Shown in pieces: positions 754 to 63,629 of a DNA stretch of 64,000 nucleotides. The notes under the pieces are model-generated. The model did no database searches. It was not told the origin of the DNA and saw only the letters and a list, made by a program, of their open reading frames with translations. The first letter of the stretch is position 1, and each line of letters begins with the position of its first letter. The stretch spans positions 855 through 64,854 of the forward strand of contig CAJVZI010000004.1 of NCBI GenBank assembly GCA_913020665.1, read 5' to 3'. The translations under genes were made by a program, and so were the position numbers. The stretch is from an uncultured bacterium (GTDB lineage: Bacteria; Fidelibacterota; Marinisomatia; Marinisomatales; UBA1611).

Positions 754-2013
754 TTAGTCTTGTTTGATTGTAATAGATCCATTATATACTTCAATATTTA
801 TTGGGACAGTACCACCGCCGACCATTCCTTCTCCTGTAACCTTTTTTTCATCAATATTAATTAATAATGGGATTTCAGAATTGAGATCTTTTTCAGAAGA
901 CGCTTGGTATATGGTGCTTTTAATATTCCCAGCTAGACCTTCTGGGATATTTATTATAGCATCGCCTAAATGTGTCTCCATGTGAATACTCTTTTCTTTA
1001 ATAAAGGAATCATAGATCAATTCTAGTTCAATATCACCGGCTGAAGTAAGGCAATCAACGCTACCTATTATTTTTTTCATATCAATATTACCAGATGATG
1101 CTTCACATGCCAATGAACCTACTAGTGAATCTATAATTATATGCCCTCCTGAGGTCATCAAGCTGATCTCACCGTCCAAATCTGAGACTTCAATATCACT
1201 TCCAGAACTTTTCATCGATATAATACCAGACATATTTTCACCTTTGATGGGACCGCCTGAAGTACGACAACCTATTTTTTCCCCTTCTATATTACTAAGG
1301 TTTATCGACCCTCCAGTCACCTGTACATCTGTGGTTCCATTTACTTGATCCAAATCAATATTTCCCCCTATAGATGACAAGTATATCTCTCCTCTTAAAT
1401 CAATAACCCTTAGATCACTTCCAAGAGAATGGGCACGTATAATGCCTTCTGTATTTTTAATATTGATCTCACCACCATCAGTTATTGCATCTAATCGTCC
1501 TTTATATAATTCAATAGATATATCACCGCCTTTGGTCTCGAAGATCCCCTCACCGTTAATCCCATATATATCAATATCACCACCAATTAGTTTGATATTC
1601 AGATTTACATTTTTTGGAAATTCTAATTCGAATATACTTTCTATATGACCCCTATTTTGCGTTTTTTCTTCTCCCGAAATAATAACCAGCTCTTCATCTT
1701 CAGAATGAGTAATAAATGACCTGGCTAGTTTATGCACTTCTTCTATTTCACCCTCAGGTATTCCGTGTGCAATTCTGGTTATGATCAATTTTGCACCAGA
1801 ACCTTCATGACCTTTTAGTTTTATATTACCTGAAATATCTTCAACAGAAAGAGTGTATGAACCATCATCTGGTATTTGATCAAATCTATATGTTTGTTTA
1901 ATACGAGTAGATGAATTTCCACTATTTGTTATCTTTTTGGGCGCATAATAGCCATACAGATATGCTATAATCTGTATATAAAGTAGAATATAGATTTTTA
2001 TTTTATTTTTCAC
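754..2013 (-). CDS. DUF4097-like beta-strand repeat protein (putative adhesin), N-terminal membrane anchor
   Basis: 419-aa ORF with a hydrophobic N-terminus. More than 12 tandem ~17-20-aa units of the type GG(D/N/E)I.(I/L)....G (GGDIDIYGINGEG, GGDISIELYKGR, GGEINIKNTEG, GGNIDLDQVNG, GGSINLSNIEG ...). Confidence 0.6.
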   Translation of the reverse strand: MKNKIKIYILLYIQIIAYLYGYYAPKKITNSGNSSTRIKQTYRFDQIPDDGSYTLSVEDISGNIKLKGHEGSGAKLIITRIAHGIPEGEIEEVHKLARSFITHSEDEELVIISGEEKTQNRGHIESIFELEFPKNVNLNIKLIGGDIDIYGINGEGIFETKGGDISIELYKGRLDAITDGGEINIKNTEGIIRAHSLGSDLRVIDLRGEIYLSSIGGNIDLDQVNGTTDVQVTGGSINLSNIEGEKIGCRTSGGPIKGENMSGIISMKSSGSDIEVSDLDGEISLMTSGGHIIIDSLVGSLACEASSGNIDMKKIIGSVDCLTSAGDIELELIYDSFIKEKSIHMETHLGDAIINIPEGLAGNIKSTIYQASSEKDLNSEIPLLINIDEKKVTGEGMVGGGTVPINIEVYNGSITIKQD

Positions 2014-2045
2014 TTCTTATTTCAATTTACATCTGTATCATAAAC

Positions 2046-2074
2046 AAAAAAAGCCCCCTTAAAGGGAGCTTTTT
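2046..2074 (-). terminator. Rho-independent terminator downstream of mdh
   Basis: On the minus strand, AGCUCCCUUUAAGGGGGCU forms an imperfect hairpin followed by a U7 run. It sits 22 nt after the mdh stop. Confidence 0.6.
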
Positions 2075-2095
2075 ATAGTTTAAAATGACTAATAC

Positions 2096-3076
<981 letters not shown>

Positions 3077-3080
3077 ATGA

Positions 3081-3338
3081 TCAATCGCTAGAAACGACTG
3101 TAACAATTTTTCGATTGCGCCCTTTTCTTCCAAATTGGACTACGCCATCTGAAGTAGCAAATAGAGAATCATCATTTGCACGTTTTACATTCACTCCTGG
3201 ATGAAATTTGGTTCCACGCTGTTTTAGTATGATAGTTCCAGCAAGTATAGATTGTCCATCAGCAACTTTTAACCCAAGGTAACTTGGATTAGAATCACGT
3301 CCATTTCTTGAACTACCTTGCCCTTTTTTATGTGCCAT
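3081..3338 (-). CDS. rpmA: 50S ribosomal protein L27
   Basis: 85 aa; [24 protein letters not shown] is the canonical L27 N-terminus. Confidence 0.95.
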
Positions 3339-3341
3339 AAC

Positions 3342-3728
3342 TTATTCCTCTTCCTGTGATGATTTGTCAATAACAGGTTCTGCTTTTTTAGAAGCAGATT
3401 TTGCTTTGGGGGAAATAGATGCTTTGATCTTCTTTATCTCTAGATCTGTGAACCATTGACGGTGTCCATTTTTCCTTTGATATCCTTTGCGTCTTTTTTT
3501 CTTATAAACCAATATCTTTCGATCTCTCCCATGATCTATGATCGTGGCAGTAACTGAAGCGCCTGATACAGTAGGCGTACCGACCTCTGTATTTTTTCCA
3601 TCGCTAAAAAGAAGAACTTCATTAAAAGTTAGAGTGCTACCTTCGTCTCCACTTTGTTTAGGTACACGAACCCGTGCTCCTTCTGAAGCTTTATATTGTT
3701 TACCTGATATATTTATAATTGCATACAT
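3342..3728 (-). CDS. rplU: 50S ribosomal protein L21 (with lysine-rich C-terminal extension)
   Basis: 128 aa; MYAIINISGKQYKASEGARVRV is the canonical L21 start. It lies 3 nt upstream of rpmA. Confidence 0.95.
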   Translation of the reverse strand: MYAIINISGKQYKASEGARVRVPKQSGDEGSTLTFNEVLLFSDGKNTEVGTPTVSGASVTATIIDHGRDRKILVYKKKRRKGYQRKNGHRQWFTDLEIKKIKASISPKAKSASKKAEPVIDKSSQEEE

Positions 3729-3757
3729 AATTATTCCTGAAAAAGCCGGCGAATTTA

Positions 3758-5299
3758 CTAGGCAGGGTTATCCTTATCAAGGTTCATTTCTTCTGTTACG
3801 TTTACACCATCTTTTGTACGTATAAAAAGAAATTCATCTTGAGCTACGTCTAAATTTGATTTGATCTTAAGATGAACAAAATTTTGCCACATAAGCCCAC
3901 GTAAAATATGTTTTTTCTCTCCGCTAAGATATTCCGCATTGTGAGGATGGAGTTGTAACTCAAGTCTAAGAGATCGATGCTTACTTTTATACCTTCTTAG
4001 CCAATGATCAATTCTAGTGATCAAGGTTTCCTGAGAAATTATTCTTCCAGACCCATGACATGCAGGACACTCTTCACTCATTGAATCTAATAGACTTACT
4101 CTAATCCTCTGACGTGTCATTTCTAAAAGACCAAATTCTGTGATAGGTGCAACCGCAACTTTTGCCCGATCTTTTCTTAATTCTTTCCTTAATTCATGGT
4201 AAACCTTCTTTCGGTTTTCTTCAAATTTCATGTCAATAAAATCAATCACGATCAAACCAGATAGATCTCTTAGTCTTAATTGTCGCGCCACCTCTCTTGC
4301 AGCTTCAAGATTGATTTTCAATGAATTATCTTCATGCATTTTTTTACCTACAAATCGACCACTATTGACATCAACTACTACCATAGCTTCTGTTTTTTCA
4401 ATGATTAAATAGGCACCACTTTTAAGCCAAGCTTTGGGTCTCATAAGTTTTTCAATCTCAGACTCTATTCCAAAGCTTTCGAATAGTGGAGCTTTTAGTT
4501 TATAAAGTTCAAGACGATCGAGTAAGCTAGGAGAAATATCCTCTAAGTATTTTTGAGTTTTCTTAAAAAGCTTTTTAGAGTCAATGATAATTTTTTCTAC
4601 ATCAGGTGTTAATAGATCGCGGACAACGCTTGAAGCAGTCTCTAAATCTTCATACACAAGGACTGGCGCATTATCACTATTTGCTCTCTGCTCTATTTTA
4701 TTCCAATTATCAATTAATTGTTTATAGTCATTTTCAATATGCTCCTCGGATTTTCCTTCAGCGACTGTTCGTATAATAACACCAATATTATTTGTCCGAA
4801 GTTTTTGCGCTATCTTCTTTAATCTGCGTCGCTCGAATTTATCCCATATTTTTTTTGAGATTCCAATATAGCTAGCATTTGGGACAAGGACTAGGAGTCT
4901 TCCTGGCAATGCGACTTCAGTGGTTACACGGGGACCTTTGCCAGCGAATGGTTCTTTAATGACTTGTACATAAATTTCTTGATCTTTTTTGAGGTCGACC
5001 TCGATGTTATCATATTTGCCATTCTTATTGTTTCGGTTTCGCTTACCTTCATTTTCTTCTATGAGATATTCATCAGAGCCTATTTCAGAAAATGGTAGAA
5101 AAGCATTTAACTCATATCCTACGTCCACAAATGCAGCTTGCATACCAGGGAGCACATTTTCAACCTTACCCTTATATACATTTCCAACCATTCGATGGTT
5201 ATCCTGCTTTTCAATATACACCTCTACTAATTGATTGTCTTCTTGAATAGCTATTCGGCTCTCACCCATGCTTTCATTGATAAAAATTTCTTTATGCAT
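3758..5299 (-). CDS. rng: Rne/Rng-family ribonuclease (RNase G-like)
   Basis: 513 aa. S1 domain (VGNVYKGKVENVLPGMQAAFVDVG), DNase-I-like region (VVVDVNSG) and Zn-link CPACHGSGRI. Confidence 0.85.
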   Translation of the reverse strand: MHKEIFINESMGESRIAIQEDNQLVEVYIEKQDNHRMVGNVYKGKVENVLPGMQAAFVDVGYELNAFLPFSEIGSDEYLIEENEGKRNRNNKNGKYDNIEVDLKKDQEIYVQVIKEPFAGKGPRVTTEVALPGRLLVLVPNASYIGISKKIWDKFERRRLKKIAQKLRTNNIGVIIRTVAEGKSEEHIENDYKQLIDNWNKIEQRANSDNAPVLVYEDLETASSVVRDLLTPDVEKIIIDSKKLFKKTQKYLEDISPSLLDRLELYKLKAPLFESFGIESEIEKLMRPKAWLKSGAYLIIEKTEAMVVVDVNSGRFVGKKMHEDNSLKINLEAAREVARQLRLRDLSGLIVIDFIDMKFEENRKKVYHELRKELRKDRAKVAVAPITEFGLLEMTRQRIRVSLLDSMSEECPACHGSGRIISQETLITRIDHWLRRYKSKHRSLRLELQLHPHNAEYLSGEKKHILRGLMWQNFVHLKIKSNLDVAQDEFLFIRTKDGVNVTEEMNLDKDNPA

Positions 5300-53600: not shown

Positions 53601-53620
53601 AACCTTGGTTCCAATTAATA

Positions 53621-53650
53621 AAAAAACCACTTCTTTGAAGTGGTTTTTTT
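53621..53650 (+). terminator. Rho-independent terminator after cspA (bidirectional-looking)
   Basis: A6-CCACTTC-TTT-GAAGTGG-T7, a perfect 7-bp stem with a 3-nt loop and a U7 tail. Confidence 0.8.
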
Positions 53651-53664
53651 ATGTCATTAGTAAG

Positions 53665-54900
53665 ATGAATAAAAAAAATATCGCAACAAAATTACTTTCA
53701 ATATTTTTCTGGATTTCAATACCATTTGCTCAAATAGAGTTTCATGTTACTTGGACGCCTTATGTAACATATTATCTAAGTATGGTTGATATAAATACAG
53801 GGGAATCTAATATGCCAATTTTCATGGCAGAATTAAGTCGAGAAGATGCTAATGCTACACAACCAGTAAATGTTGATATTGAATTTGAGATCATTATTGA
53901 CTCTGATGCTCTAGGAGTTGAAAATGAAACATTGGTAAGAGTTGAAACGACTCAACCATTACAATTAACGGCTCCGATTCACCTAACAAATATGGATTTG
54001 AATCTTTCTACAGATATGTTATTTGATACTGAAGGAAATCAGGTAGAATTAAATCTAGACATTACGGAACAGATGGATCTTACTGAAGCCGAACAAATGA
54101 TGAGCTTGATCGTACAGACGGGGCAACTTCCTAATGGCATATATACATTTCGTGTAATTGCTACTGCTGAGAATGGACAGCAAATTATTAGGGAAGATAT
54201 TCTAAATATCTCTAATCCAGAGCTTCTCCAGTTAGTGTCTCCTGGGGGTATATTAGCGGATACGACGATAAATGAAGTTTATACATCCTATCCTGTATTT
54301 CAATGGGAGTCTGATCCTTGTAATTACATTGACCCATCTACTGGTGAAAGCGGTTGTCAGTATTTTATTAGAGTTGCTGAATTCAGATCAGATGAACATG
54401 CGTCTGTTGATCAAGCAATTGAATCAGTTACAAGATTGCCATTAGACCAGTCCTTAGGTTTTCAACAGGTTGGATTTGGTATGACCACCTTCCAATATCC
54501 AACAGATGGAGGTGATCTAGAGCCAGGTAAGGTTTATGTATGGCAGATACGTAAGGATATTGTTACGACCGTTGGTACTGAAGAATTATTAAGTGATATC
54601 ATGGCATTCAAGATAAAAGATTTTGCATCAACAGAAAGCGATGAAGTCGATATGGAAGACACTTCACCTATTGGTATTGTTTTGAGATCACTTATGGGAG
54701 ATGCCCTAGCAGATAGAATTTTTGGTCCTGGTGGACAAGCTGAAGGTATGGTACCTAATGGTAATATTACGTTGAATGGTGAAAATATAGATCTATCAAC
54801 CGTCCAGTCAATATTATCATCAGGAATCTCTACCATAGATGAAGATGGGAATGAGACCTTTAAGCAAATTGAAGTTATTTCTGTCGAGGTCTCAGAATGA
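53665..54900 (+). CDS. Secreted beta-rich protein, function unknown (first gene of three-gene envelope module)
   Basis: The ATG at 53665 gives the signal peptide MNKKNIATKLLSIFFWISIPFAQ. The longer track ORF (53554) would run through the cspA terminator. Confidence 0.6.
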   Translation: MNKKNIATKLLSIFFWISIPFAQIEFHVTWTPYVTYYLSMVDINTGESNMPIFMAELSREDANATQPVNVDIEFEIIIDSDALGVENETLVRVETTQPLQLTAPIHLTNMDLNLSTDMLFDTEGNQVELNLDITEQMDLTEAEQMMSLIVQTGQLPNGIYTFRVIATAENGQQIIREDILNISNPELLQLVSPGGILADTTINEVYTSYPVFQWESDPCNYIDPSTGESGCQYFIRVAEFRSDEHASVDQAIESVTRLPLDQSLGFQQVGFGMTTFQYPTDGGDLEPGKVYVWQIRKDIVTTVGTEELLSDIMAFKIKDFASTESDEVDMEDTSPIGIVLRSLMGDALADRIFGPGGQAEGMVPNGNITLNGENIDLSTVQSILSSGISTIDEDGNETFKQIEVISVEVSE

Positions 54901-55568
54901 AAAATTTACTTGTAATTATCTTAAGTGCTGTTACCGTTATATCTGCATCTTCTAAAGTAGCCATTGCTATAAAGACAAAAGGTGATGTTTCTATTATTCA
55001 CAAGGGATTGAATACTGCACAGGCTTTGAAACCTGGCTCTCCTTTAAGTGACCAAGATAAGATAAGGACCGGTAAAAACGGCTTTGTTGCAATTATGTAC
55101 CTTGATGATAAGACAGTATTAAAAATGCTTGGCAATTCAGACATGACCATTTTGGGTCAACGCTCTGGTGTTAAGATCAATAAATCTATAGATATCAAAT
55201 ATGGCAGGATCGCTGCAGCTGTTACTCCACAAAAAGGTAAAGAGTTTATGATAGCCACTCCAACTTCTGTTGCATCTGTCAAAGGGACTGAGCTAGCAAT
55301 TGATTCAGATCCCTCAACCGGTGATTCTTTCACTCTTATTGAAGGATTGATAGAAGTAACCAATAATCTTACTGGCGAAACAACCGAAGTCCAACAAGGT
55401 GAGACAGCTGTCTCAACCCCTGAAGGTTCTCTAGAGGTAAATAATACAACACAAGGAGACCTAGAAGGTTTTGAAGAAGCTGATATGCAGGTATCCACTC
55501 AAGAATTAAGATTTGAGGTGGAAGATGAGAATGGAAATACCAAAGAGATCATAATAAAATTTCAATAA
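54897..55568 (+). CDS. Secreted FecR-domain protein (no anti-sigma/TM region; LipL45-like)
   Basis: 223 aa with a signal peptide. DKIRTGKNGFVAIMYLDDKTVLKM, FMIATPTSVASVKGTELAI and LIEGLIEVTN. ATGA overlap with the upstream gene. Confidence 0.6.
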   Translation: MKNLLVIILSAVTVISASSKVAIAIKTKGDVSIIHKGLNTAQALKPGSPLSDQDKIRTGKNGFVAIMYLDDKTVLKMLGNSDMTILGQRSGVKINKSIDIKYGRIAAAVTPQKGKEFMIATPTSVASVKGTELAIDSDPSTGDSFTLIEGLIEVTNNLTGETTEVQQGETAVSTPEGSLEVNNTTQGDLEGFEEADMQVSTQELRFEVEDENGNTKEIIIKFQ

Positions 55569-55572
55569 GTAC

Positions 55573-57825
55573 ATGATCTATAAATATATTTTGTTTCTTC
55601 TGTATTCTCTTGTTTTAATGACAAATGTTATTTTTGGTCAATCAGGTATTTTGATACTGAGTCCAGAACCAAGATCAGAGATATCTGGAGAAAATGTTCT
55701 GATCGCAGTCTCTCTTATTGGCGCTAACGACCTTGACCATAATTCTATCACATTATTATTAGATGGTTCGGATATAACCGATCAGGCTTACGTTGATTCT
55801 GATATGTTAAGTTGTTTACTTGACCAGGTTGATCCGGGACAGCATAAAGTAAACCTTATAGTTGATGGTATGAGCCAACCTGTCATTTGGGACTTTATAA
55901 CAACTTCTAAAGATCCAACAGTTAATTATTCAGGAAAGATCAGGTCAAGTAATAGCATGGATCAGGTCGATAACCAGACATTAAATATCAATAAATTGAC
56001 TCTTGATTTTAAGGGTTCAGCCTTTGAGTGGCTCAGTTTTAGGACCAATCTTAAAATGACGAGTCAAGAGAATCAACTTTATCAACCTAGAAACATCTAT
56101 GGATTTAGTATGGGTGTTAAAGATATTTTGAGTATAAATATGGGAGACTCCAATCCCAGAATGTCTCACTATACTATGAATGGTAAGAGGATCAGAGGGC
56201 TAGACCTTAACCTAAAATTTGGATTATTAAATTTCCATTTTGTACAAGGTGAGATAAATCGTGCTATACAAGGTGATCCGTCCAGAGCATATTCGTATGA
56301 TATAAATACGGATATGGTAGGGGACAAATATATTGCACTCAGTCGTGCTGGCTATACCTTTCAACAAAATGTAACCTCTGCAAGATTAGCTATTGGTCGG
56401 GGAGAAATATTTCAATGGGGGTTGAGCTTAATGAAAGCCCGTGATGATACTAATAGTGTCGATCAAGAACTATCTAATGCAGAAATAATTTATTCCCCAG
56501 ACATTACTGGGTCCATTGATGGACTAGACTCTGGAATGGTATACACTATTGATGAATTAGGAACAAGGGCACAAATACTTGATGGGAAAGACTGGTCTGG
56601 TAATGGACCAAAGGATAACCTAGTTATCAGTTCAGACCTGGGGCTAAATCTCTTTAGTAAGCGACTGCGAATTGATGGTGAGGTTGCTTTTAGTATGACC
56701 AATAATAATATATGGGGTGGCCCACTTACTCTTGCAGAGTTAGATACTCTTATTGATGATTCTGTTGATAATAAACTTTCTAGTTTTGATCTAAGTAGTT
56801 TTCCTGACCCAGCAGATTATGAGCAGTATTTGATCATTAATTCAAATCTGGCACCTTTGGTTCCAATTGATATAAATGCTTTTGGTGATAATAGTACAAT
56901 AGATCTTGTGGATGCTATATTTTCTATGCCATCCCTTGCCTATCGTGGAAGAGCGATCACAAATTTTTATGGTAATTATCTAGCACTCGAGTACAGTCAA
57001 GTCGGTTCAGAATTCAATTCATTAGCGAACCCATATATTGTGAAAAATAAACGGGAGTGGTCCATAACTGATAAATTTAAATTATTTAATAATAGGCTCA
57101 TGTTGAATATTGGCTATAAGCATCAAGATGATGATATATTAACATCTGTTGAGAATGTAAAGACTCAAAATACCCTCTCTTTTGGTTTTAATGCTGTGCC
57201 AGGGCCAGGGCTTCCTACAATAAATTTCAATTATCGTTCTATTAATAGAGATAATGGTATTGACCAGATAGTGCAATTAACCGATACGACATATACTGAT
57301 AATAGAGAAAAAACACATACTAATAATATAATGGTCAATTTGAATCATCGTTTTGATCTATTATGGGATCATTCTTTAAGTGGAACATTTGTCAATGTTG
57401 AAAAAGAGGATAAATACACTGATCGTTCACAATTGTTTGTCGACCCGTCCATTTCGACCCAAGTTATCAATGTATCCTTGTCAACACGGTATAACTCGCC
57501 ATTGGAAACAAGGATAAATATCACAACAAACTCTAGTGAATTAAGTACGGGACCAGGACAAAGAGGTTCGCAAGATTTCCTTAATATGGGTATTGATGCA
57601 AATTATCCTTTTTTAAAAAAACGATTACTAGTAAGCAGTGGGCTTAGCTTTGCAAATGGCACGGGAATGGTTGATATGTCTTGGCTAGGCTTCAAAGCTG
57701 GTTTACGTTGGAGTATTCTTGAAGATCTTAGCCTGAACACCCAAGGTGAATTCAGATCAAAAGAGACAAATGGTTCAAGCAAGAATACCATTATTGCAAG
57801 GATGAACCTCGAATACTCATTTTGA
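55573..57825 (+). CDS. Putative outer-membrane beta-barrel protein with N-terminal Ig-like domain, function unknown
   Basis: 750 aa with a signal peptide. Alternating amphipathic beta-like segments. C-terminal ..ARMNLEYSF (terminal Phe, OMP beta-signal-like). Confidence 0.55.
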   Translation: MIYKYILFLLYSLVLMTNVIFGQSGILILSPEPRSEISGENVLIAVSLIGANDLDHNSITLLLDGSDITDQAYVDSDMLSCLLDQVDPGQHKVNLIVDGMSQPVIWDFITTSKDPTVNYSGKIRSSNSMDQVDNQTLNINKLTLDFKGSAFEWLSFRTNLKMTSQENQLYQPRNIYGFSMGVKDILSINMGDSNPRMSHYTMNGKRIRGLDLNLKFGLLNFHFVQGEINRAIQGDPSRAYSYDINTDMVGDKYIALSRAGYTFQQNVTSARLAIGRGEIFQWGLSLMKARDDTNSVDQELSNAEIIYSPDITGSIDGLDSGMVYTIDELGTRAQILDGKDWSGNGPKDNLVISSDLGLNLFSKRLRIDGEVAFSMTNNNIWGGPLTLAELDTLIDDSVDNKLSSFDLSSFPDPADYEQYLIINSNLAPLVPIDINAFGDNSTIDLVDAIFSMPSLAYRGRAITNFYGNYLALEYSQVGSEFNSLANPYIVKNKREWSITDKFKLFNNRLMLNIGYKHQDDDILTSVENVKTQNTLSFGFNAVPGPGLPTINFNYRSINRDNGIDQIVQLTDTTYTDNREKTHTNNIMVNLNHRFDLLWDHSLSGTFVNVEKEDKYTDRSQLFVDPSISTQVINVSLSTRYNSPLETRINITTNSSELSTGPGQRGSQDFLNMGIDANYPFLKKRLLVSSGLSFANGTGMVDMSWLGFKAGLRWSILEDLSLNTQGEFRSKETNGSSKNTIIARMNLEYSF

Positions 57826-58030
57826 CCTTGGTTTTATCAATAAATTGATAGAACTATTCTTAATAAAATAATTATTTGAAAAAAGTGATGATGGTCAAGG
57901 AACCCCACCTTGATAATTCTTCCTTTGATTATTTTACTTGCTCCAAATTAAAAATGATCCTGATCCCTCATTTAGAGTCTAATTTTATTTGCAGTTTATT
58001 TTAGCCAGCTTTACTCTTCACTATACAATT

Positions 58031-58876: not shown

Positions 58877-59242
58877 ATGAAAACAAAAAAAATAAATATA
58901 AATAAAAAGCTTAAAAAGTTCTCTGACCATTGGTCTCCTAAGGTTATTGCAGAGATGAATGACTATCAATTTAAACTTGCAAAAATAAAGGGGGAATTCA
59001 TATGGCATGAACATAAGGATACTGATGAGGTATTTATAGTTATCGATGGTAGAATGCAGATAGAGTTCCAAAATGAAACTATAGAGCTAGAAAAGGGTGA
59101 CATGTATGTGGTCCCAAAAGGAGTCCAGCATAAACCGCATGCAGAGGAAGAATGTAAGATCATGTTGGTAGAACCAAGAGGGGTATTAAATACAGGTGAG
59201 AACACCAATGATCTTACTGCGGAAAATGATGTTTGGATCTAA
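58877..59242 (+). CDS. Cupin-domain protein
   Basis: 121 aa. WHEHKDTDEVFIV...GDMYVVPKGVQHKP are cupin motifs 1 and 2. Confidence 0.7.
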   Translation: MKTKKININKKLKKFSDHWSPKVIAEMNDYQFKLAKIKGEFIWHEHKDTDEVFIVIDGRMQIEFQNETIELEKGDMYVVPKGVQHKPHAEEECKIMLVEPRGVLNTGENTNDLTAENDVWI

Positions 59243-61001
59243 AAGCAACTATTTGTTTTTATTTTTTTTTGGTTTTCTGATCGGCCAAGATTGTGATGAA
59301 GATGAAGTAGAATTATGGAGCGACTGCTATTCTATAGATAGCACTACTCATATAGATCTTACTGCGCAAAATATTTATGGAGAAATTCCGCCTACCATAG
59401 GAGACCTCATTAATCTAGTTTATTTAGATCTTGCTGCGAATAACTTGTCTGGATCTATTCCTGATGAGATAGGCAATCTTTTAAACTTGAATTATTTATA
59501 TTTGCAGAACAATGAACTCTCAGGCTCCATTCCAACTACCATTGGGAATCTAACCAATCTAATTGGATTAAAATTATATGGTAATCAACTTAATGGTGCA
59601 ATCCCTAGTGAGATAGGTAATTTAACTAGTTTAGCGTACTTGAGTTTATTCATGAATGAATTATCGGGTCACATTCCACCAGAAATAGGTAACCTGTCTG
59701 ATCTAGAGCATCTTTATTTATATGATAATGCTCTTAGTGGTCCTATACCTACTGAGTTAGGTGAACTAACTCATTTATCACAGCTATATTTAAATCAGAA
59801 TCAGCTTACTGGTTCACTTCCTAGCGAGATAGGCAATCTTATTAATCTAACTCATTTATATCTTTATGATAATCAACTCACTGGTTTGATTCCCTCTTCG
59901 ATCATAAGGATGACAAGCTTGAATTATTTTTGGATATATGAAAATCAATTCGCTGGAGAATTACCCTGTAACATTTGTGAAATGGACCTGGATTGGGACA
60001 ATACTACATTAGTAAAAATTTCTGAAAATCAGTTTTGCCCACCTTATCCTGATTGTATAATGGATAATATTGATTCTCAAGACACTTCTAACTGCGCTTC
60101 TATACCTCAGCGGCAGTTCGATCTATGGGGTGATTGTTATATGATCGAAAATACTGATTCTCTCAATCTGGGAAATATGGGTCTGACAGGTAATATTTCT
60201 CCAGAGATCGGGAACTTAATTAACCTTGAATATCTATTCTTACATGGTAATGAATTGATAGGTGAAATTCCGGAAGAGATCGGGAATCTTGTAAATTTGA
60301 AATATCTCTATTTGTATGATAACGAACTCACTGGACAAATACCATCTTCTATAGGCGGATTATCCAGTTTAACTCAATTGTTCTTATATGGTAATAATAT
60401 TTCTGGCACTATTCCAAATAGTATAGGTGAACTTACAGGTCTTAAAAAGTTGTTCTTATATGATAACCAATTAACTGGAGAATTACCTGTTGAAATGAAT
60501 GATCTATTGGACCTTGAATATGTATATATCAATGACAATCAGTTAAGCGGAAATATAGATGTGAATTTTTGTGATCTCAATCTTGACTGGAGTAATTCCT
60601 TATATTTTAATATATCTAATAATCAATTTTGTTCGCCCTATCCTATCTGTCTAGATAATTATATGGGATACCAAGATACAATGAGTTGTGGTAACATACT
60701 TTCAACATTAGAACAGGACATCAATACATATAAGGTCTTTGATGCTTATCCTAATCCCTTCAATCCAATTACCACACTTAGTTATTATTTGCCAAATAGT
60801 GCTCAGGTTACAATTATTATTTATGATATTCATGGAAGAGTAATTAATAACTTTTTCAATGGTTTCCAAGAATCTGGCCATCGGTCAATAACATGGTATG
60901 CAAAAAATGATTCGGGCCGACCTGTAAGTGCTGGAATATATTTTTTGACAATTGTAACTGGTGATTTTACAGATACAAAAAAAATGGTCCTTTTAAAATA
61001 G
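59226..61001 (+). CDS. Plant-type leucine-rich-repeat protein, T9SS cargo
   Basis: The ATG at 59226 gives the signal peptide MMFGSKSNYLFLFFFGFLIGQ. About 15 24-aa LRRs (L..L..L.L..N.LSG.IP..IGN) in two blocks. C-terminal sorting domain. Confidence 0.8.
   Translation: MMFGSKSNYLFLFFFGFLIGQDCDEDEVELWSDCYSIDSTTHIDLTAQNIYGEIPPTIGDLINLVYLDLAANNLSGSIPDEIGNLLNLNYLYLQNNELSGSIPTTIGNLTNLIGLKLYGNQLNGAIPSEIGNLTSLAYLSLFMNELSGHIPPEIGNLSDLEHLYLYDNALSGPIPTELGELTHLSQLYLNQNQLTGSLPSEIGNLINLTHLYLYDNQLTGLIPSSIIRMTSLNYFWIYENQFAGELPCNICEMDLDWDNTTLVKISENQFCPPYPDCIMDNIDSQDTSNCASIPQRQFDLWGDCYMIENTDSLNLGNMGLTGNISPEIGNLINLEYLFLHGNELIGEIPEEIGNLVNLKYLYLYDNELTGQIPSSIGGLSSLTQLFLYGNNISGTIPNSIGELTGLKKLFLYDNQLTGELPVEMNDLLDLEYVYINDNQLSGNIDVNFCDLNLDWSNSLYFNISNNQFCSPYPICLDNYMGYQDTMSCGNILSTLEQDINTYKVFDAYPNPFNPITTLSYYLPNSAQVTIIIYDIHGRVINNFFNGFQESGHRSITWYAKNDSGRPVSAGIYFLTIVTGDFTDTKKMVLLK
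59292..60700 (+). repeat. Two tandem LRR blocks, each with an N-cap (LW.DCY.I..T) and a Cys-rich C-cap (C.L.LDW.N....IS.NQFC.PYP.C)
   Basis: Block 1 spans about 59292-60107 (9 repeats) and block 2 about 60108-60700 (6 repeats). Caps: DEVELWSDCYSID / QFDLWGDCYMIE and ISENQFCPPYPDC / ISNNQFCSPYPIC. Confidence 0.75.
60744..60998 (+). other. T9SS (Por) type-A C-terminal sorting domain
   Basis: AYPNPFNPITTLSYYL...SAGIYFLTIVTGDFTDTKKMVLLK. Confidence 0.75.
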
Positions 61002-61016
61002 ATCGTATCATCAGAG

Positions 61017-61931
61017 ATGAAGCGAATAAGATCAAAATTGATCATTTTACGGTTAGCTCTGCTAGGTCTTTTCCATTTGAATTGTGCAAAAGAGCCTATC
61101 AACTTTGAAAATGAAATGGTTCAAAGGGACAATAAATACTATTTAAAGGGACAGAATGAACCATACACTGGGCCTATCTACTCATCATATAGCAATAATA
61201 CCTTAAAAAGTAAGGGGGATGTATCAGATGGAAAAAAAGATGGTCTATGGAATGAATGGTATGAAAATGGTAGAATAAAAAGTAAAGAAAACTTTAAAAA
61301 CGGTAAAGCTACGGGTGTTTGGGAATTATGGCATGATAATGATCAGATGAAACTAAAGGCATCTTTTAGCAATGGTAAAGCAAATGGACCACGTATCGAG
61401 TGGTATGACAATGGTCAAAAAAAAGAAGAGGGACATTTTATTGATGATCAATTTGATGGTCAATGGATAAAATGGTATCCCAGTGGTCTTAAAAGTGCAC
61501 AAGGTAATTATGTAAAAAACAAAGAAGAAGGTATTCATACCTTTTGGCACCCTAATGGGAATAAAAAGTCTGAAGCAAATTTTAAAAATGGAGAGATCGT
61601 TGGATCACGAATAGATTGGTACGATAATGGTCAAAAAAAAGAAGAAGGAACATCAGAAGGCCTATGGACACAGTGGTATGAAAATGGTAATAAAAAAGGA
61701 CAGGGTTACTACAAAAATAAGGCACCAATAGGTAAGCATATATTATGGCACTCAAATGGTAATATGAGATCAGTAATGCATTTTATCAGTGGTAGACCTC
61801 ATGGTCTGCGTACGGAATGGTACGACAATGGTCAAAAGAAAGAAGAAGGTAATTTTATTAATGGTGAACAACAGGGTAGATGGACCTACTATAATAAAGA
61901 TGGCACGCTTGATGGCACAGAGGACTATTAA
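61017..61931 (+). CDS. MORN-variant (YwqK-type) repeat lipoprotein
   Basis: 304 aa with lipobox-like HLNCAK. About 11 units of G.W..WY.NG.KK.EG.F.NG...G. Confidence 0.7.
   Translation: MKRIRSKLIILRLALLGLFHLNCAKEPINFENEMVQRDNKYYLKGQNEPYTGPIYSSYSNNTLKSKGDVSDGKKDGLWNEWYENGRIKSKENFKNGKATGVWELWHDNDQMKLKASFSNGKANGPRIEWYDNGQKKEEGHFIDDQFDGQWIKWYPSGLKSAQGNYVKNKEEGIHTFWHPNGNKKSEANFKNGEIVGSRIDWYDNGQKKEEGTSEGLWTQWYENGNKKGQGYYKNKAPIGKHILWHSNGNMRSVMHFISGRPHGLRTEWYDNGQKKEEGNFINGEQQGRWTYYNKDGTLDGTEDY
61401..61850 (+). repeat. Three near-identical 30-33-nt segments inside the MORN-repeat gene
   Basis: TGGTATGACAATGGTCAAAAAAAAGAAGAGGG (61401), TGGTACGATAATGGTCAAAAAAAAGAAGAAGG (61617) and TGGTACGACAATGGTCAAAAGAAAGAAGAAGG (61818). 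Each encodes WYDNGQKKEEG. Confidence 0.8.
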
Positions 61932-61937
61932 TAATTA

Positions 61938-63629
61938 ATGAGATCCTATTTTAAGCTGTATAACCTAGCTATTATTATTTATCTCATCACTTTTTGCTGG
62001 GCTCAGAACCTTTCTTTCAAAGATATAGCTGCGCAGGGGTCGTTGAATTTTATTCATGACCATGGAGGATCTGGTGAATATTATTATGTCGAGTCAATGG
62101 GCTCAGGTGTTTGCATATTTGACTATGATAATGATGGTGATCTAGATGCATATTTCCCCCAGTCATCTCCTTTACCTGGATGGAAAAAAAGTGTCATTTT
62201 GGAGAATAAACTTTTCAGAAATGATGATTTGGAATGGACGGATGTTACAAATGAGGCAGGTGTAGGAGATAAAAGTTACAGTATGGGCTGTGCCTGTGGA
62301 GATTATGACAATGATGGTGATATAGATCTTTATGTAACAAATTTTGGTAAGGATATACTTTACCAGAATAATGGTGATGGTTCCTTTACTGATGTAACCC
62401 TGGAACTTGGGATCGATAATCATTCTATGGGAATGAGTGCCGCATTTTTTGATAGTGATAATGATGGGTTTTTAGATCTATATGTCACTAATTATGTTGA
62501 CTATTCGATAGATAATAATCCTGAATGTACCAGCCCTTTGCAATATCCAAAGCATGGTGAATTATTTGCAAGGTCTTATTGTGATCCTGATGTCTTCCTT
62601 GGGGTTGAAGATAAATTTTATTATAACAAGAATGGTAAGTTCATTGACCGATCTAATCGATCTGGTATAGGAAGGTACCGTCTAAGGGGAATGGGAGTTG
62701 TACCAGGGGATGTAGACAATGATGGAGATATGGATATTTATGTGGCAAATGATAAAGATATGAACCTTTTATTCATCAATAATGGTAGAGGGAGATTTAC
62801 TGAAAGTGCATTATTCATGGGGGTTGGTTATAATGGTAATGGCCTAGCTGAAGCTGGGATGGGTGTGGATCTTGGAGATATTGATCGTGATGGCTGGTTA
62901 GATATTTATGTTACAAATTATAGTGGAGAGACGAATACTCTATATCTTAATCAAGGATCTGGTATTTTTTCAGACGCAACAAATGAGATCGGTCTTGGAA
63001 AACCAAGTATCCATTTTCTTGCATTTGGAACAAAATTGGTAGACCTTGACCTTGATGGTTGGCTCGATATATATGTGGCTAATGGACATGTCATCGATAA
63101 TATTGATCTGTTCAATAAAGATTATCGTCACGCTCAGTATAACCAAATCTATTTAAATCAAAAAAATGGATCTTTTAGTGATATAACTACAATGATCGGG
63201 GGAGATCTATTATATAAGGCTGTGAGCAGAGGATCTGCATTTGGTGATATTGATAATGATGGTGATATTGATATTATGGTTTCAAATAATAATGGAAAAG
63301 CTAGGCTATTGATAAACGAAGGTGATCATAAGAATAACTGGATAGGCTTTGAACTTGAAGGTAGGACCTGTAACAAACAGGCGATTGGAAGTAAGATCAT
63401 AATATCAACTGATTCCGGTGACCAAGTAGCCTGGGTAAATCCAGCGGGTAGTTATCTTACTTCTAATGATACAAGAGTGGTATTTGGCATCAATAGTGAT
63501 CGACTTGTAAGGTCAATCTCAATTGATTGGCCAGGTTCAGAAAAGGAAACGTTTAAAGACCTAAAGCCTAATTATTACTACAAAATAATACAGGGTGTAT
63601 CAATATCAACGATAAGCTCTGGTATGTAG
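61938..63629 (+). CDS. CRTAC1/ASPIC-UnbV family protein with FG-GAP/VCBS repeats
   Basis: 563 aa with a signal peptide. Repeated D.DNDGD.D.YV.N motifs (six or more) and a C-terminal UnbV-ASPIC-like GSYLTSND..V.FG. Confidence 0.75.
   Translation: MRSYFKLYNLAIIIYLITFCWAQNLSFKDIAAQGSLNFIHDHGGSGEYYYVESMGSGVCIFDYDNDGDLDAYFPQSSPLPGWKKSVILENKLFRNDDLEWTDVTNEAGVGDKSYSMGCACGDYDNDGDIDLYVTNFGKDILYQNNGDGSFTDVTLELGIDNHSMGMSAAFFDSDNDGFLDLYVTNYVDYSIDNNPECTSPLQYPKHGELFARSYCDPDVFLGVEDKFYYNKNGKFIDRSNRSGIGRYRLRGMGVVPGDVDNDGDMDIYVANDKDMNLLFINNGRGRFTESALFMGVGYNGNGLAEAGMGVDLGDIDRDGWLDIYVTNYSGETNTLYLNQGSGIFSDATNEIGLGKPSIHFLAFGTKLVDLDLDGWLDIYVANGHVIDNIDLFNKDYRHAQYNQIYLNQKNGSFSDITTMIGGDLLYKAVSRGSAFGDIDNDGDIDIMVSNNNGKARLLINEGDHKNNWIGFELEGRTCNKQAIGSKIIISTDSGDQVAWVNPAGSYLTSNDTRVVFGINSDRLVRSISIDWPGSEKETFKDLKPNYYYKIIQGVSISTISSGM

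What the first reader, a model, noticed from the sequence alone, without database searches (positions are those of the whole stretch)
53665..57825. Uncharacterised three-gene exported/outer-membrane module (secreted beta-rich protein + signal-peptide FecR-domain protein + 750-aa putative barrel)
Three co-directional ORFs are packed as one unit, with an ATGA stop/start overlap at 54897-54900 and a 4-nt gap at 55569-55572. All three begin with cleavable-looking signal peptides (MNKKNIATKLLSIFFWISIPFAQ; MKNLLVIILSAVTVISASS; MIYKYILFLLYSLVLMTNVIFGQ). The middle protein has FecR-type segments (DKIRTGKNGFVAIMYLDDKTVLKM, FMIATPTSVASVKGTELAI, LIEGLIEVTN). It has no cytoplasmic anti-sigma region and no TM anchor, and no ECF sigma factor or TonB transducer is nearby, so it is not a canonical FecIR signalling pair. 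The 750-aa protein has an N-terminal Ig-like segment and long alternating-polarity stretches. It ends in ..ARMNLEYSF, the aromatic C-terminal signature of BAM-inserted barrels. The first protein contains modules of the pattern P.F.W ... G.Y.W.I (NGIYTFRVIA; PVFQWES...PGKVYVWQIR) that I cannot place in a named family. No function can be assigned to any of the three. The architecture suggests a dedicated envelope machine for surface assembly, export or sensing.
Basis: partly seen in the sequence, partly recalled or inferred. Interest (0 to 1): 0.6.

Follow-up and report, generated by a model that had tools for sequence, protein, structure and literature searches.

The report
Outer-membrane sensor module missing its cyclase
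Three tightly packed genes of an ocean Marinimicrobia (SAR406) bacterium encode an acidic secreted protein, a periplasmic FecR-domain protein and a large outer-membrane barrel; in related bacteria the same genes are followed by a CHASE2 cAMP/cGMP cyclase, so they most likely sense something at the cell surface, though here the cyclase gene is not next to them.

Summary
There are three co-directional ORFs (g1 411 aa, g2 223 aa, g3 750 aa) with an ATGA overlap and a 4-nt gap. Each has a signal-peptide-like N-terminus. g2 carries a FecR domain. g3 has an N-terminal Ig-like domain and ends in ...NLEYSF.

A confident AlphaFold model of g3 (pLDDT 83.7) matches only outer-membrane barrels, best the 26-strand MtrB. 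g1 and g3 match no curated family.

The main new result is context. The g1-FecR-g3 order is conserved in all 26 Marinimicrobia genome loci that cover those genes and in 80 metagenomic loci. In deep-branching Marinimicrobia and in 59 of 65 judged metagenomic loci, a CHASE2 nucleotide-cyclase gene directly follows g3.

The architecture parallels the characterised NsrA-CyaK system of Sinorhizobium, where one protein fuses FecR, TPR and a barrel. The two barrels are not detectably homologous.

The trio is therefore most likely the envelope sensing part of a second-messenger pathway. In this pelagic SAR406 clade no CHASE2 gene lies in the window or in 241 kb of related loci. The trio is still under strong purifying selection (dN/dS 0.04-0.09). 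Its output here is unknown. I file it as a new variant of a known kind.

The parts
53620..53650 (+). Hairpin terminator of the upstream cold-shock gene: A-run, 7-bp stem ccacttc/gaagtgg with a 3-nt loop, then T-run. It ends 14 nt before the g1 ATG.
   Evidence: Read directly from the sequence. The upstream ORF is a CSD protein.
53665..54900 (+). g1: 411-aa exported, strongly acidic protein (mature pI 4.05) with two invariant Cys. It matches no curated family.
   Evidence: It lies upstream of the FecR gene in all Marinimicrobia loci. A g1-like gene is found in 57 of 62 judged metagenomic loci.
53665..53730 (+). g1 signal-peptide-like N-terminus (MNKKNIATKLLSIFFWISIPFA|Q).
   Evidence: Hydrophobic window score of 8/10. 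Q23 is invariant.
54103..54453 (+). g1 conserved core (residues 147-263, with the G.Y.F and P.F.W motifs and the Cys pair). It is shared with the upstream gene of distant modules.
   Evidence: hhalign A4 against A3: probability 91%, E 1e-6, 98 aligned columns.
54897..55568 (+). g2: 223-aa periplasmic FecR-domain protein with a signal peptide, no anti-sigma domain, no TM anchor and no Cys.
   Evidence: BLASTP to the NsrA FecR region gives E 2e-9.
55056..55319 (+). FecR domain of g2 (residues 54-141).
   Evidence: Pfam PF04773, E 1.5e-10, 41.8 bits.
55503..55565 (+). g2 C-terminal segment ELRFEVEDENGNTKEIIIKFQ, conserved across the family.
   Evidence: Alignment A7, 18 sequences down to 23% identity.
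55573..57825 (+). g3: 750-aa outer-membrane protein made of a signal peptide, an Ig-like domain and a large beta-barrel.
55651..55905 (+). g3 N-terminal Ig-like beta-sandwich (residues 27-111), inferred to be periplasmic.
   Evidence: AF2 secondary structure. Weak TIG, Big_7 and Big_13 hits.
55921..57822 (+). g3 beta-barrel region (residues 117-750, about 26-28 long strands). Conserved non-strand segments lie at about residues 196-210, 376-435 and 481-495.
   Evidence: AF2 pLDDT 83.7. Foldseek hits are all OM barrels, best MtrB at E 1.5e-12. Conservation profile.
57796..57822 (+). C-terminal beta-signal ARMNLEYSF, with a terminal F and alternating hydrophobic residues.
57894..57914 (+). Weak terminator-like hairpin downstream of g3.
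   Evidence: Consensus scan only; the count is not above the shuffle expectation.

Best explanation
The trio is the cell-envelope (input) part of a trans-envelope signalling system.

- g3 is a large outer-membrane beta-barrel whose N-terminal Ig-like domain faces the periplasm.
- g2 is a soluble periplasmic FecR-domain adaptor.
- g1 is an acidic, disulphide-containing exported accessory subunit.

In most relatives the operon continues with an inner-membrane CHASE2 class III adenylate/guanylate cyclase.

Proposed mechanism: an event at the barrel (ligand or protein binding at conserved loops, possibly involving g1) is passed through the FecR-domain protein to the periplasmic CHASE2 domain, which changes cAMP/cGMP synthesis. 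This parallels FecA to FecR, and NsrA to CyaK.

In this pelagic SAR406 lineage the cyclase gene is not in the operon and g3 has lost an extra N-terminal periplasmic domain. The conserved trio must therefore either couple to a transducer encoded elsewhere or work on its own.

Shown: gene order, domain content, predicted barrel fold, conserved linkage to CHASE2 cyclases in relatives, and purifying selection.

Inferred: topology, protein contacts, direction of signalling and the role of g1.
For: - A CHASE2+Guanylate_cyc gene directly follows g3 in four deep-branching Marinimicrobia loci, L023-L026.
- The same holds in 59 of 65 judged metagenomic loci, with a median gap of 12 nt. FecR lies directly upstream in 69 of 69, and a g1-like gene in 57 of 62. 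Three database look-ups agree.
- In S. meliloti NsrA, a FecR domain and an OM barrel are fused in one protein whose gene overlaps the CHASE2 cyclase gene cyaK. NsrA is required for signal perception by CyaK/CyaD (PMC7529298, PMC13001267). The same pair occurs in Methylocystis.
- Pairing of FecR-domain proteins with CHASE2 sensors is reported independently in Burkholderia (PMC5192318) and Campylobacterota (PMC9239204).
- The g2 FecR domain aligns to NsrA's at E 2e-9.
- The extra N-terminal domain of long g3 forms also occurs inside long FecR proteins. This ties g2 and g3 together and places that domain in the periplasm.
- The g3 model (pLDDT 83.7) matches only OM barrels.
- Signalling genes also flank the module elsewhere: a hybrid histidine kinase in L027, and GAF-HK plus GAF-SpoIIE in the other cyclase-less lineage.
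Against: - No CHASE2 or cyclase domain is present in the 64-kb window. None is present in 241 kb of 22 closely related SAR406 loci, apart from unrelated cytoplasmic Fer2-cyclase-Rieske fusions.
- Despite this, the trio is under strong purifying selection (dN/dS 0.04-0.09). It therefore has a function that does not need an adjacent cyclase.
- Six of 65 metagenomic loci also lack the cyclase.
- Gene adjacency cannot show the direction of information flow.
- g3's barrel is not homologous to NsrA's, so the analogy is architectural only.
- No ligand, interaction or localisation data exist.
- Barrel closure was judged from secondary structure and Foldseek hits, not from inspected coordinates.
Confidence: 0.55

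Rival explanations
1. The trio is a stand-alone outer-membrane transport, export or surface-assembly device. g3 would be a wide pore that sheathes or translocates a protein, for example the acidic g1, with g2 as a periplasmic plug or chaperone. The CHASE2 cyclase of relatives would then be a regulatory add-on that monitors the machine.
For: - The trio persists under purifying selection without any adjacent cyclase in SAR406 and in a second lineage.
- The best structural matches are barrels that enclose other proteins: MtrB, then the FimD and PapC ushers.
- g1 is exported, very acidic and disulphide-bonded, which would suit a surface or secreted cargo.
- The N-terminus of the g2 profile weakly resembles the retention/plug module of LapA-type adhesins (5ix9 at E 9e-4; NF033682 at E 0.01).
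Against: - There is no Pfam or NCBIfam signature of any secretion, usher, Omp85/TpsB, LptD or TonB family.
- There is no ATPase or other energising component in the operon.
- TM-scores to MtrB and the ushers are low (0.27-0.52), consistent with generic large-barrel similarity.
- The dominant conserved partner across the family is a signalling enzyme (59 of 65).
Confidence: 0.25
2. The trio is a substrate-specific nutrient-uptake channel: a large porin-like barrel with periplasmic binding proteins. It would be unrelated to signalling in this organism.
For: - g3 is a large barrel with highly conserved loop or plug segments.
- SAR406 genomes are streamlined and rich in transport functions (background knowledge, not tested here).
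- Foldseek also hits TonB-dependent transporters.
Against: - There is no plug or TonB-box domain and no TonB-ExbBD or ABC transporter genes adjacent.
- FecR domains are not known solute-binding proteins.
- This reading does not explain the conserved linkage to CHASE2 cyclases.
Confidence: 0.1
3. The trio is a degenerate FecIR-type cell-surface signalling pair (anti-sigma factor plus transducer).
For: g2 has a FecR domain.
Against: - g2 has a cleavable-type signal peptide but no cytoplasmic anti-sigma domain and no TM helix.
- No ECF sigma factor or TonB-dependent transducer with an STN domain was found nearby.
- g3 has no TonB_dep_Rec or Plug hit.
- In none of the roughly 100 related loci did the conserved partner genes include a sigma factor. 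The conserved partners are g1, g3 and CHASE2.
Confidence: 0.03

Closest known systems
NsrA-CyaK (and CyaD1/D2) of Sinorhizobium meliloti: an outer-membrane receptor protein plus CHASE2 adenylate cyclases
   Same: - An N-terminal signal peptide, a FecR domain and a C-terminal outer-membrane beta-barrel are encoded immediately upstream of a CHASE2+Guanylate_cyc gene.
- NsrA is required for perception of an extracellular protein signal (PMC7529298, PMC13001267).
- The g2 FecR domain aligns to NsrA's at E 2e-9.
- Relatives of the trio have the same gene order ending in a CHASE2 cyclase.
   Different: - NsrA is one 1200-aa polypeptide with a TPR region. Here the FecR domain and the barrel are separate proteins, there is no TPR, and a third protein (g1) is present.
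- The barrels are not detectably homologous (hhalign probability 0.2%). NsrA's barrel is distantly TonB-receptor-like, while g3 is MtrB-like in size.
- The window itself has no cyclase.
FecA-FecR-FecI cell-surface signalling (E. coli ferric citrate system)
   Same: An outer-membrane barrel is combined with a periplasmic FecR domain to pass information inward. g2 meets the Pfam FecR threshold.
   Different: There is no anti-sigma N-domain or TM helix in g2, no ECF sigma factor, and no TonB-dependent transducer, plug or STN domain. In relatives the output is a nucleotide cyclase, not a sigma factor.
Periplasmic FecR-domain protein plus CHASE2 sensor pairs: the Burkholderia BiofilmReg LysM-FecR plus CHASE2 histidine kinase, and the Campylobacterota CHASE2 cyclase clusters
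   Same: A secreted FecR-domain protein is encoded next to a CHASE2-containing transducer (PMC5192318, PMC9239204).
   Different: - Those systems have no g3-type barrel and no g1.
- The Burkholderia FecR protein carries LysM, and its output is a two-component system.
- The Campylobacterota clusters add a phosphodiesterase and a TPR protein.
MtrB, the 26-strand porin of the Shewanella MtrCAB complex (PDB 6r2q chain B)
   Same: It is the best structural match to the g3 model (E 1.5e-12, TM 0.46/0.52). It is a very large barrel able to enclose another protein.
   Different: Sequence identity is 9%. There is no decahaem partner: g2 has no Cys and g1 has two Cys that are not in a CxxCH motif. The similarity is probably generic to large barrels.

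Membership tests
FecR domain proteins (Pfam PF04773) | Match to the FecR profile above the gathering score | tested here: met
   g2 residues 54-141, E 1.5e-10, 41.8 bits against 24.
FecR/RskA-type anti-sigma factors (FecIR surface signalling) | N-terminal cytoplasmic anti-sigma domain followed by one TM helix | tested here: not met
   g2 is 223 aa. Its only hydrophobic segment is the N-terminal signal peptide, and Pfam finds no anti-sigma domain.
FecR/RskA-type anti-sigma factors (FecIR surface signalling) | Adjacent ECF sigma factor and TonB-dependent transducer with Plug/STN domains | tested here: not met
   The flanking genes are E2, a methyltransferase, a radical SAM protein, Lon and Csp upstream, and FA hydroxylase, cupin, LRR, MORN and FG-GAP proteins downstream. 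g3 has no TonB_dep_Rec or Plug hit.
NsrA-CyaK type receptor/CHASE2 cyclase system | FecR domain associated with an outer-membrane barrel | tested here: met
   Met in split form: g2 (FecR) is encoded 4 nt upstream of g3 (barrel). NsrA has both in one chain.
NsrA-CyaK type receptor/CHASE2 cyclase system | Barrel homologous to the NsrA C-terminal barrel | tested here: not met
   BLASTP E 0.39. hhalign of the g3 profiles against NsrA alone and against a 7-sequence NsrA profile gives probability 0.2%.
NsrA-CyaK type receptor/CHASE2 cyclase system | TPR region between the FecR domain and the barrel | tested here: not met
   NsrA has TPR at residues 378-587. No TPR hit in g1, g2 or g3.
NsrA-CyaK type receptor/CHASE2 cyclase system | CHASE2 adenylate/guanylate cyclase gene immediately downstream | tested here: not met
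   Absent from the window and from L001-L022. Present in relatives L023-L026 and in 59 of 65 metagenomic loci.
NsrA-CyaK type receptor/CHASE2 cyclase system | Required for signal-dependent cNMP synthesis | not testable with these tools
   This needs genetics or biochemistry.
FCB-group four-gene module g1-FecR-barrel-CHASE2 cyclase (defined here; I found no description of it in the literature) | g1-like, FecR and g3-like genes in this order, tightly spaced | tested here: met
FCB-group four-gene module g1-FecR-barrel-CHASE2 cyclase (defined here; I found no description of it in the literature) | Fourth gene encoding CHASE2+Guanylate_cyc | tested here: not met
   Not at this locus. Whether one exists elsewhere in the genome could not be tested.
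BAM-inserted outer-membrane beta-barrel proteins | Signal peptide, C-terminal beta-signal ending in an aromatic residue, and an all-beta barrel fold | tested here: met
   The N-terminus is signal-peptide-like and the protein ends ...NLEYSF. 88 of 123 relatives end in F. The model has pLDDT 83.7 with about 26-28 strands, and the top 50 listed Foldseek hits (of 272 at E <= 0.001) are all OM barrels.
BAM-inserted outer-membrane beta-barrel proteins | Experimental outer-membrane localisation | not testable with these tools
   This needs fractionation or proteomics.
MtrB-type porin-cytochrome complexes | Multihaem (CxxCH) partner proteins threaded through the barrel | tested here: not met
   g2 has no Cys. 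g1 has two Cys 12 residues apart.
Chaperone-usher, TonB-dependent transporter, Omp85/TpsB and LptD families | Family-specific Pfam domains (Usher, Plug/TonB_dep_Rec, POTRA/Bac_surface_Ag, LptD) | tested here: not met
   No such hit at E <= 1 for g3 or at E <= 0.1 for nine distant relatives. No PDB sequence hit.

The most novel reading that the evidence does not exclude
g1, g2 and g3 form a previously unrecognised trans-outer-membrane protein relay. A MtrB-sized barrel would hold parts of the periplasmic FecR-domain protein and the acidic g1 subunit, so that a surface event is passed mechanically to periplasmic sensor domains. This would be the long-sought input route for CHASE2 receptors across the FCB superphylum. 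In abundant pelagic SAR406 it would have been rewired to a different, still unknown output after the cyclase was lost.
Probability: 0.2. Interest if true: 0.8.

Novelty: new variant of a known kind. Interest (0 to 1): 0.55.

Why it matters
- **CHASE2 input.** CHASE2 is a common bacterial extracytoplasmic sensor domain whose inputs are essentially unknown. The only worked example, NsrA-CyaK, needs an outer-membrane FecR-barrel protein.
- **A possible general design.** A different, non-homologous barrel together with a separate FecR protein and a third subunit is linked to CHASE2 cyclases in named Marinimicrobia MAGs and many unassigned metagenomic loci. The g3 family itself also occurs in KSB1 and Calditrichota, whose gene contexts were not examined. 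This suggests a general scheme, outer-membrane barrel to FecR domain to CHASE2 to cNMP, and it offers many new systems in which to test it.
- **Annotation.** It gives a first functional hypothesis for two large families currently annotated only as 'hypothetical protein'. The g3 family has 731 clusters at 50% identity.
- **SAR406.** In this very abundant, uncultured ocean lineage, the conserved cyclase-less version raises the question of what the envelope module couples to.

Tried and rejected
- **Curated families and solved structures by sequence.** Pfam and NCBIfam on g1 and g3, Pfam on nine distant g3 relatives, and PDB sequence or profile searches for g1, g2 and g3 gave nothing significant beyond FecR.
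- **First g3 model.** The shallow alignment gave pLDDT 51 and was not used. The model was redone with a diverse alignment.
- **g3 against the NsrA barrel.** BLASTP and two hhalign tests were negative.
- **g1 and g2 against the g3 family.** No relationship was found.
- **Cyclase hits downstream in L005, L009 and L017.** In L009 and L017 these are cytoplasmic Fer2-cyclase-Rieske fusions several genes away, and they were rejected as partners. The L005 hit is a cyclase-domain fragment at the locus end and was not examined further.
- **Metagenome scan.** The scan with the very diverse profile A2 failed for lack of a conserved stretch. It was repeated with A6.
- **NsrA paper.** The primary paper (PMC5952392) is not held, so NsrA properties come from later papers and from my own domain scan.
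- **Taxonomy.** Two of the three look-ups gave phylum names: Marinimicrobia/Fidelibacterota, KSB1 and Calditrichota. The third gave none.

Full report
**1. Observation**

The three ORFs exist as described: g1 at 53665-54900 (411 aa), g2 at 54897-55568 (223 aa) and g3 at 55573-57825 (750 aa), all on the + strand. The ATGA stop/start overlap at 54897-54900 and the 4-nt gap at 55569-55572 are read directly from the sequence. The ATG at 53665 is the real g1 start, because hundreds of homologues are 410-411 aa long.

A perfect 7-bp hairpin flanked by A- and T-runs (53620-53650) ends the upstream cold-shock gene only 14 nt before g1. All three N-termini have a signal-peptide-like hydrophobic core. 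The Gln right after it is invariant in g1 and g3. This fits the A|Q cleavage habit of FCB-group bacteria, which is background knowledge and not tested here. The named homologues place the organism in Marinimicrobia (SAR406, Neomarinimicrobiota/Fidelibacterota).

**2. The individual proteins**

*g2.* It meets the Pfam FecR threshold (E 1.5e-10, residues 54-141). It has no anti-sigma domain and no TM anchor. NCBIfam gives only sub-threshold similarity to the Leptospira FecR-type lipoproteins and adhesins LipL45, Lsa33 and Lsa19.

*g1.* It matches nothing in Pfam, NCBIfam or the PDB by sequence or profile. It is very acidic (mature pI 4.05) and has two invariant cysteines.

*g3.* It has no curated family either, and nine distant relatives also have none. 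An exhaustive search finds 731 clusters at 50% identity. Most are 800-1000 aa long, with an extra N-terminal domain, a signal peptide and a C-terminal aromatic residue (88 of 123 end in F).

- A first AlphaFold model from a shallow alignment was poor (pLDDT 51).
- A 45-sequence alignment reaching 22% identity gave pLDDT 83.7 and pTM 0.70. The model has a beta-sandwich at residues 27-111 followed by about 26-28 long antiparallel strands.
- The top 50 Foldseek hits against the PDB are all outer-membrane barrels. The best is the 26-strand MtrB (E 1.5e-12, TM about 0.5), followed by pilus ushers, SlpA and TonB-dependent transporters.
The low TM-scores do not place g3 in any of those families.
- Several non-strand segments (about 196-210, 376-435 and 481-495) are among the most conserved parts. 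They are probably lumen or surface loops with a functional role. This is an inference.

**3. Context: the main result**

The g1-g2-g3 order is conserved wherever those genes are covered in the 26 Marinimicrobia genome loci. This includes four deep-branching loci at only 30-41% identity where the flanking genes differ. In those four loci a fourth gene follows g3 within 23-217 nt. It encodes an 803-874-aa protein with CHASE2 and Guanylate_cyc domains.

Look-ups of three very distant g3 homologues (about 25% identity) show the same four-gene order: unknown, FecR, g3-like, CHASE2 cyclase.

I then fetched 80 metagenomic loci and scored them with HMMs built here:

| Feature | Loci with it / loci judged |
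|---|---|
| FecR gene directly upstream of g3 | 69 / 69 |
| CHASE2 gene directly downstream of g3 (median gap 12 nt) | 59 / 65 |
| g1-like gene upstream of FecR | 57 / 62 |

The 'unknown' first gene of distant modules is related to g1 in its core (hhalign probability 91%, E 1e-6). Named carriers of the g3 family are Marinimicrobia/Fidelibacterota, KSB1 and Calditrichota, and every entry is annotated 'hypothetical protein'. These loci are not phylogenetically independent, and the retrieval was pattern-based. The fractions describe the sample and are not a population estimate.

**4. What is special here**

The window and all 22 loci of the closer pelagic SAR406 clade (241 kb) contain no CHASE2 domain. 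Their only cyclases are cytoplasmic Fer2-cyclase-Rieske fusions several genes away. In this clade g3 has also lost the roughly 130-aa N-terminal domain (750 aa against 906-911 aa).

The trio is nevertheless under strong purifying selection. dN/dS is 0.04-0.09 against two relatives, compared with 0.02 for Lon. A second cyclase-less lineage keeps the N-terminal domain and is flanked by GAF-histidine-kinase and GAF-SpoIIE genes.

**5. Comparison with known systems**

Pairing of FecR-domain proteins with CHASE2 sensors has been noted in Burkholderia (LysM-FecR plus a CHASE2 histidine kinase, PMC5192318). [quoted passage not shown]

The worked example is S. meliloti NsrA. This outer-membrane receptor is needed for the CHASE2 cyclases CyaK and CyaD1/D2 to respond to a plant or ribosomal uL2 protein signal (PMC7529298, PMC13001267).

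- I retrieved nsrA. It encodes 1200 aa with FecR (66-160), TPR (378-587) and a C-terminal barrel, and it overlaps cyaK. A Methylocystis plasmid has the same pair.
- g2 aligns to NsrA's FecR region (E 2e-9).
- g3's barrel is not detectably related to NsrA's, whether tested sequence against profile or profile against profile.
- NsrA's barrel is distantly TonB-receptor-like.

The resemblance is therefore one of design (FecR domain, outer-membrane barrel, CHASE2 cyclase) and not of family membership. NsrA acts as a 'Rosetta stone' fusion that supports a physical g2-g3 partnership. A further link is that long FecR proteins carry an inserted copy of the g3 N-terminal domain.

**6. Mechanism and rivals**

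*Best explanation (confidence 0.55).* The trio is the envelope input module of a trans-envelope second-messenger pathway. The barrel, perhaps with g1, registers a surface event. The FecR-domain protein relays it in the periplasm. In complete systems the CHASE2 cyclase converts it into cAMP/cGMP. Here the transducer is either elsewhere in the genome or has been replaced.

*Main rival (0.25).* The trio is primarily a transport, export or surface-assembly pore, with MtrB- and usher-like dimensions and the acidic g1 as cargo. Relatives would merely regulate or monitor it through CHASE2. Its persistence without the cyclase is the best argument for this reading.

*Other rivals.* A nutrient-channel reading (0.1) and a degenerate FecIR reading (0.03) fit poorly.

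**7. Verdict**

It is a new variant of a known kind of system, a split NsrA-like design with a non-homologous barrel and an extra subunit, seen here in a cyclase-less form. I score interest at 0.55. The finding gives a testable route to CHASE2 signal input and a first hypothesis for two large 'hypothetical' families in an abundant ocean lineage. The mechanism remains inferred from context.

Noticed in passing
window 53620-53664: The terminator hairpin of the cold-shock gene ends only 14 nt before the g1 start codon, leaving no room for a separate promoter. The trio may be expressed by read-through from csp or from a promoter inside or upstream of csp. The csp-g1 adjacency is conserved in many SAR406 loci (L001, L002, L004, L007, L016, L018, L019, L022).
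   Followed up: partly
window 59196-61001: A 601-aa leucine-rich-repeat protein carries a C-terminal FlgD_ig/Por_Secre_tail (type IX secretion sorting) domain, so the organism probably has a T9SS. The listed GTG start overlaps the upstream cupin gene by 47 nt, so the real start is probably further downstream.
   Followed up: partly
window 61017-63629: Two further exported proteins lie downstream: a MORN_2-repeat protein (61017-61931) and an FG-GAP/ASPIC protein (61938-63629). Together with the LRR protein they form a run of surface or secreted proteins next to the trio.
   Followed up: partly
L009 10835-12175; L017 6054-7391: An unusual cytoplasmic fusion of a 2Fe-2S ferredoxin domain, a class III cyclase domain and a Rieske domain (445-446 aa) occurs in SAR406 relatives, followed by a stand-alone Rieske-like gene. 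It may be a redox-sensing cyclase.
   Followed up: partly
L023 7664-8542; L024 11958-12833; L025 7791-8738: A conserved fifth gene follows the CHASE2 cyclase in deep-branching Marinimicrobia. It encodes 291-315 aa with a lipoprotein-like N-terminus (...C-G-L/C-K-S). The one copy scanned (L024) has no Pfam match. It may be another module component.
   Followed up: partly
L072, L074, L075, L081 (about 1400-3900, minus strand): In the other cyclase-less lineage, GAF-HisKA-HATPase and GAF-SpoIIE (PP2C) genes lie divergently upstream of the trio. GAF domains can bind cyclic nucleotides, so these could be alternative signalling partners.
   Followed up: partly
L029 6808-7887 (residues 234-320) against L027 8001-10397 (residues 38-114): Long-form FecR proteins (about 360 aa) contain an inserted domain homologous to the extra N-terminal domain of long g3 proteins (BLASTP E 1e-5, with cross-hits in about 20 loci). 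This periplasmic module is shared between the two partners and is absent from the window's g2 and g3.
   Followed up: partly
window 55503-55565 (g2 residues 203-223): The last roughly 20 residues of g2 (ELRFEVEDENGNTKEIIIKFQ) form a conserved hairpin-like motif ending in an aromatic residue, kept across the family down to 23% identity. It could be a strand-augmentation contact.
   Followed up: no
window 54966-55175 (g2 residues ~24-93): The N-terminus of the g2 profile weakly matches the N-terminal region of the Marinomonas ice-binding adhesin (5ix9, E 9e-4) and the N-terminal domain of the magnetotaxis protein MtxA (4z29, E 0.035). NCBIfam gives a weak hit to the LapA retention module (E 0.01).
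   Followed up: partly
L007 5105-6329; L018 7001-9212: g1 in L007 and g3 in L018 give split tblastn hits in different frames. These are either frameshifts (pseudogenes) or assembly errors in those MAGs.
   Followed up: no
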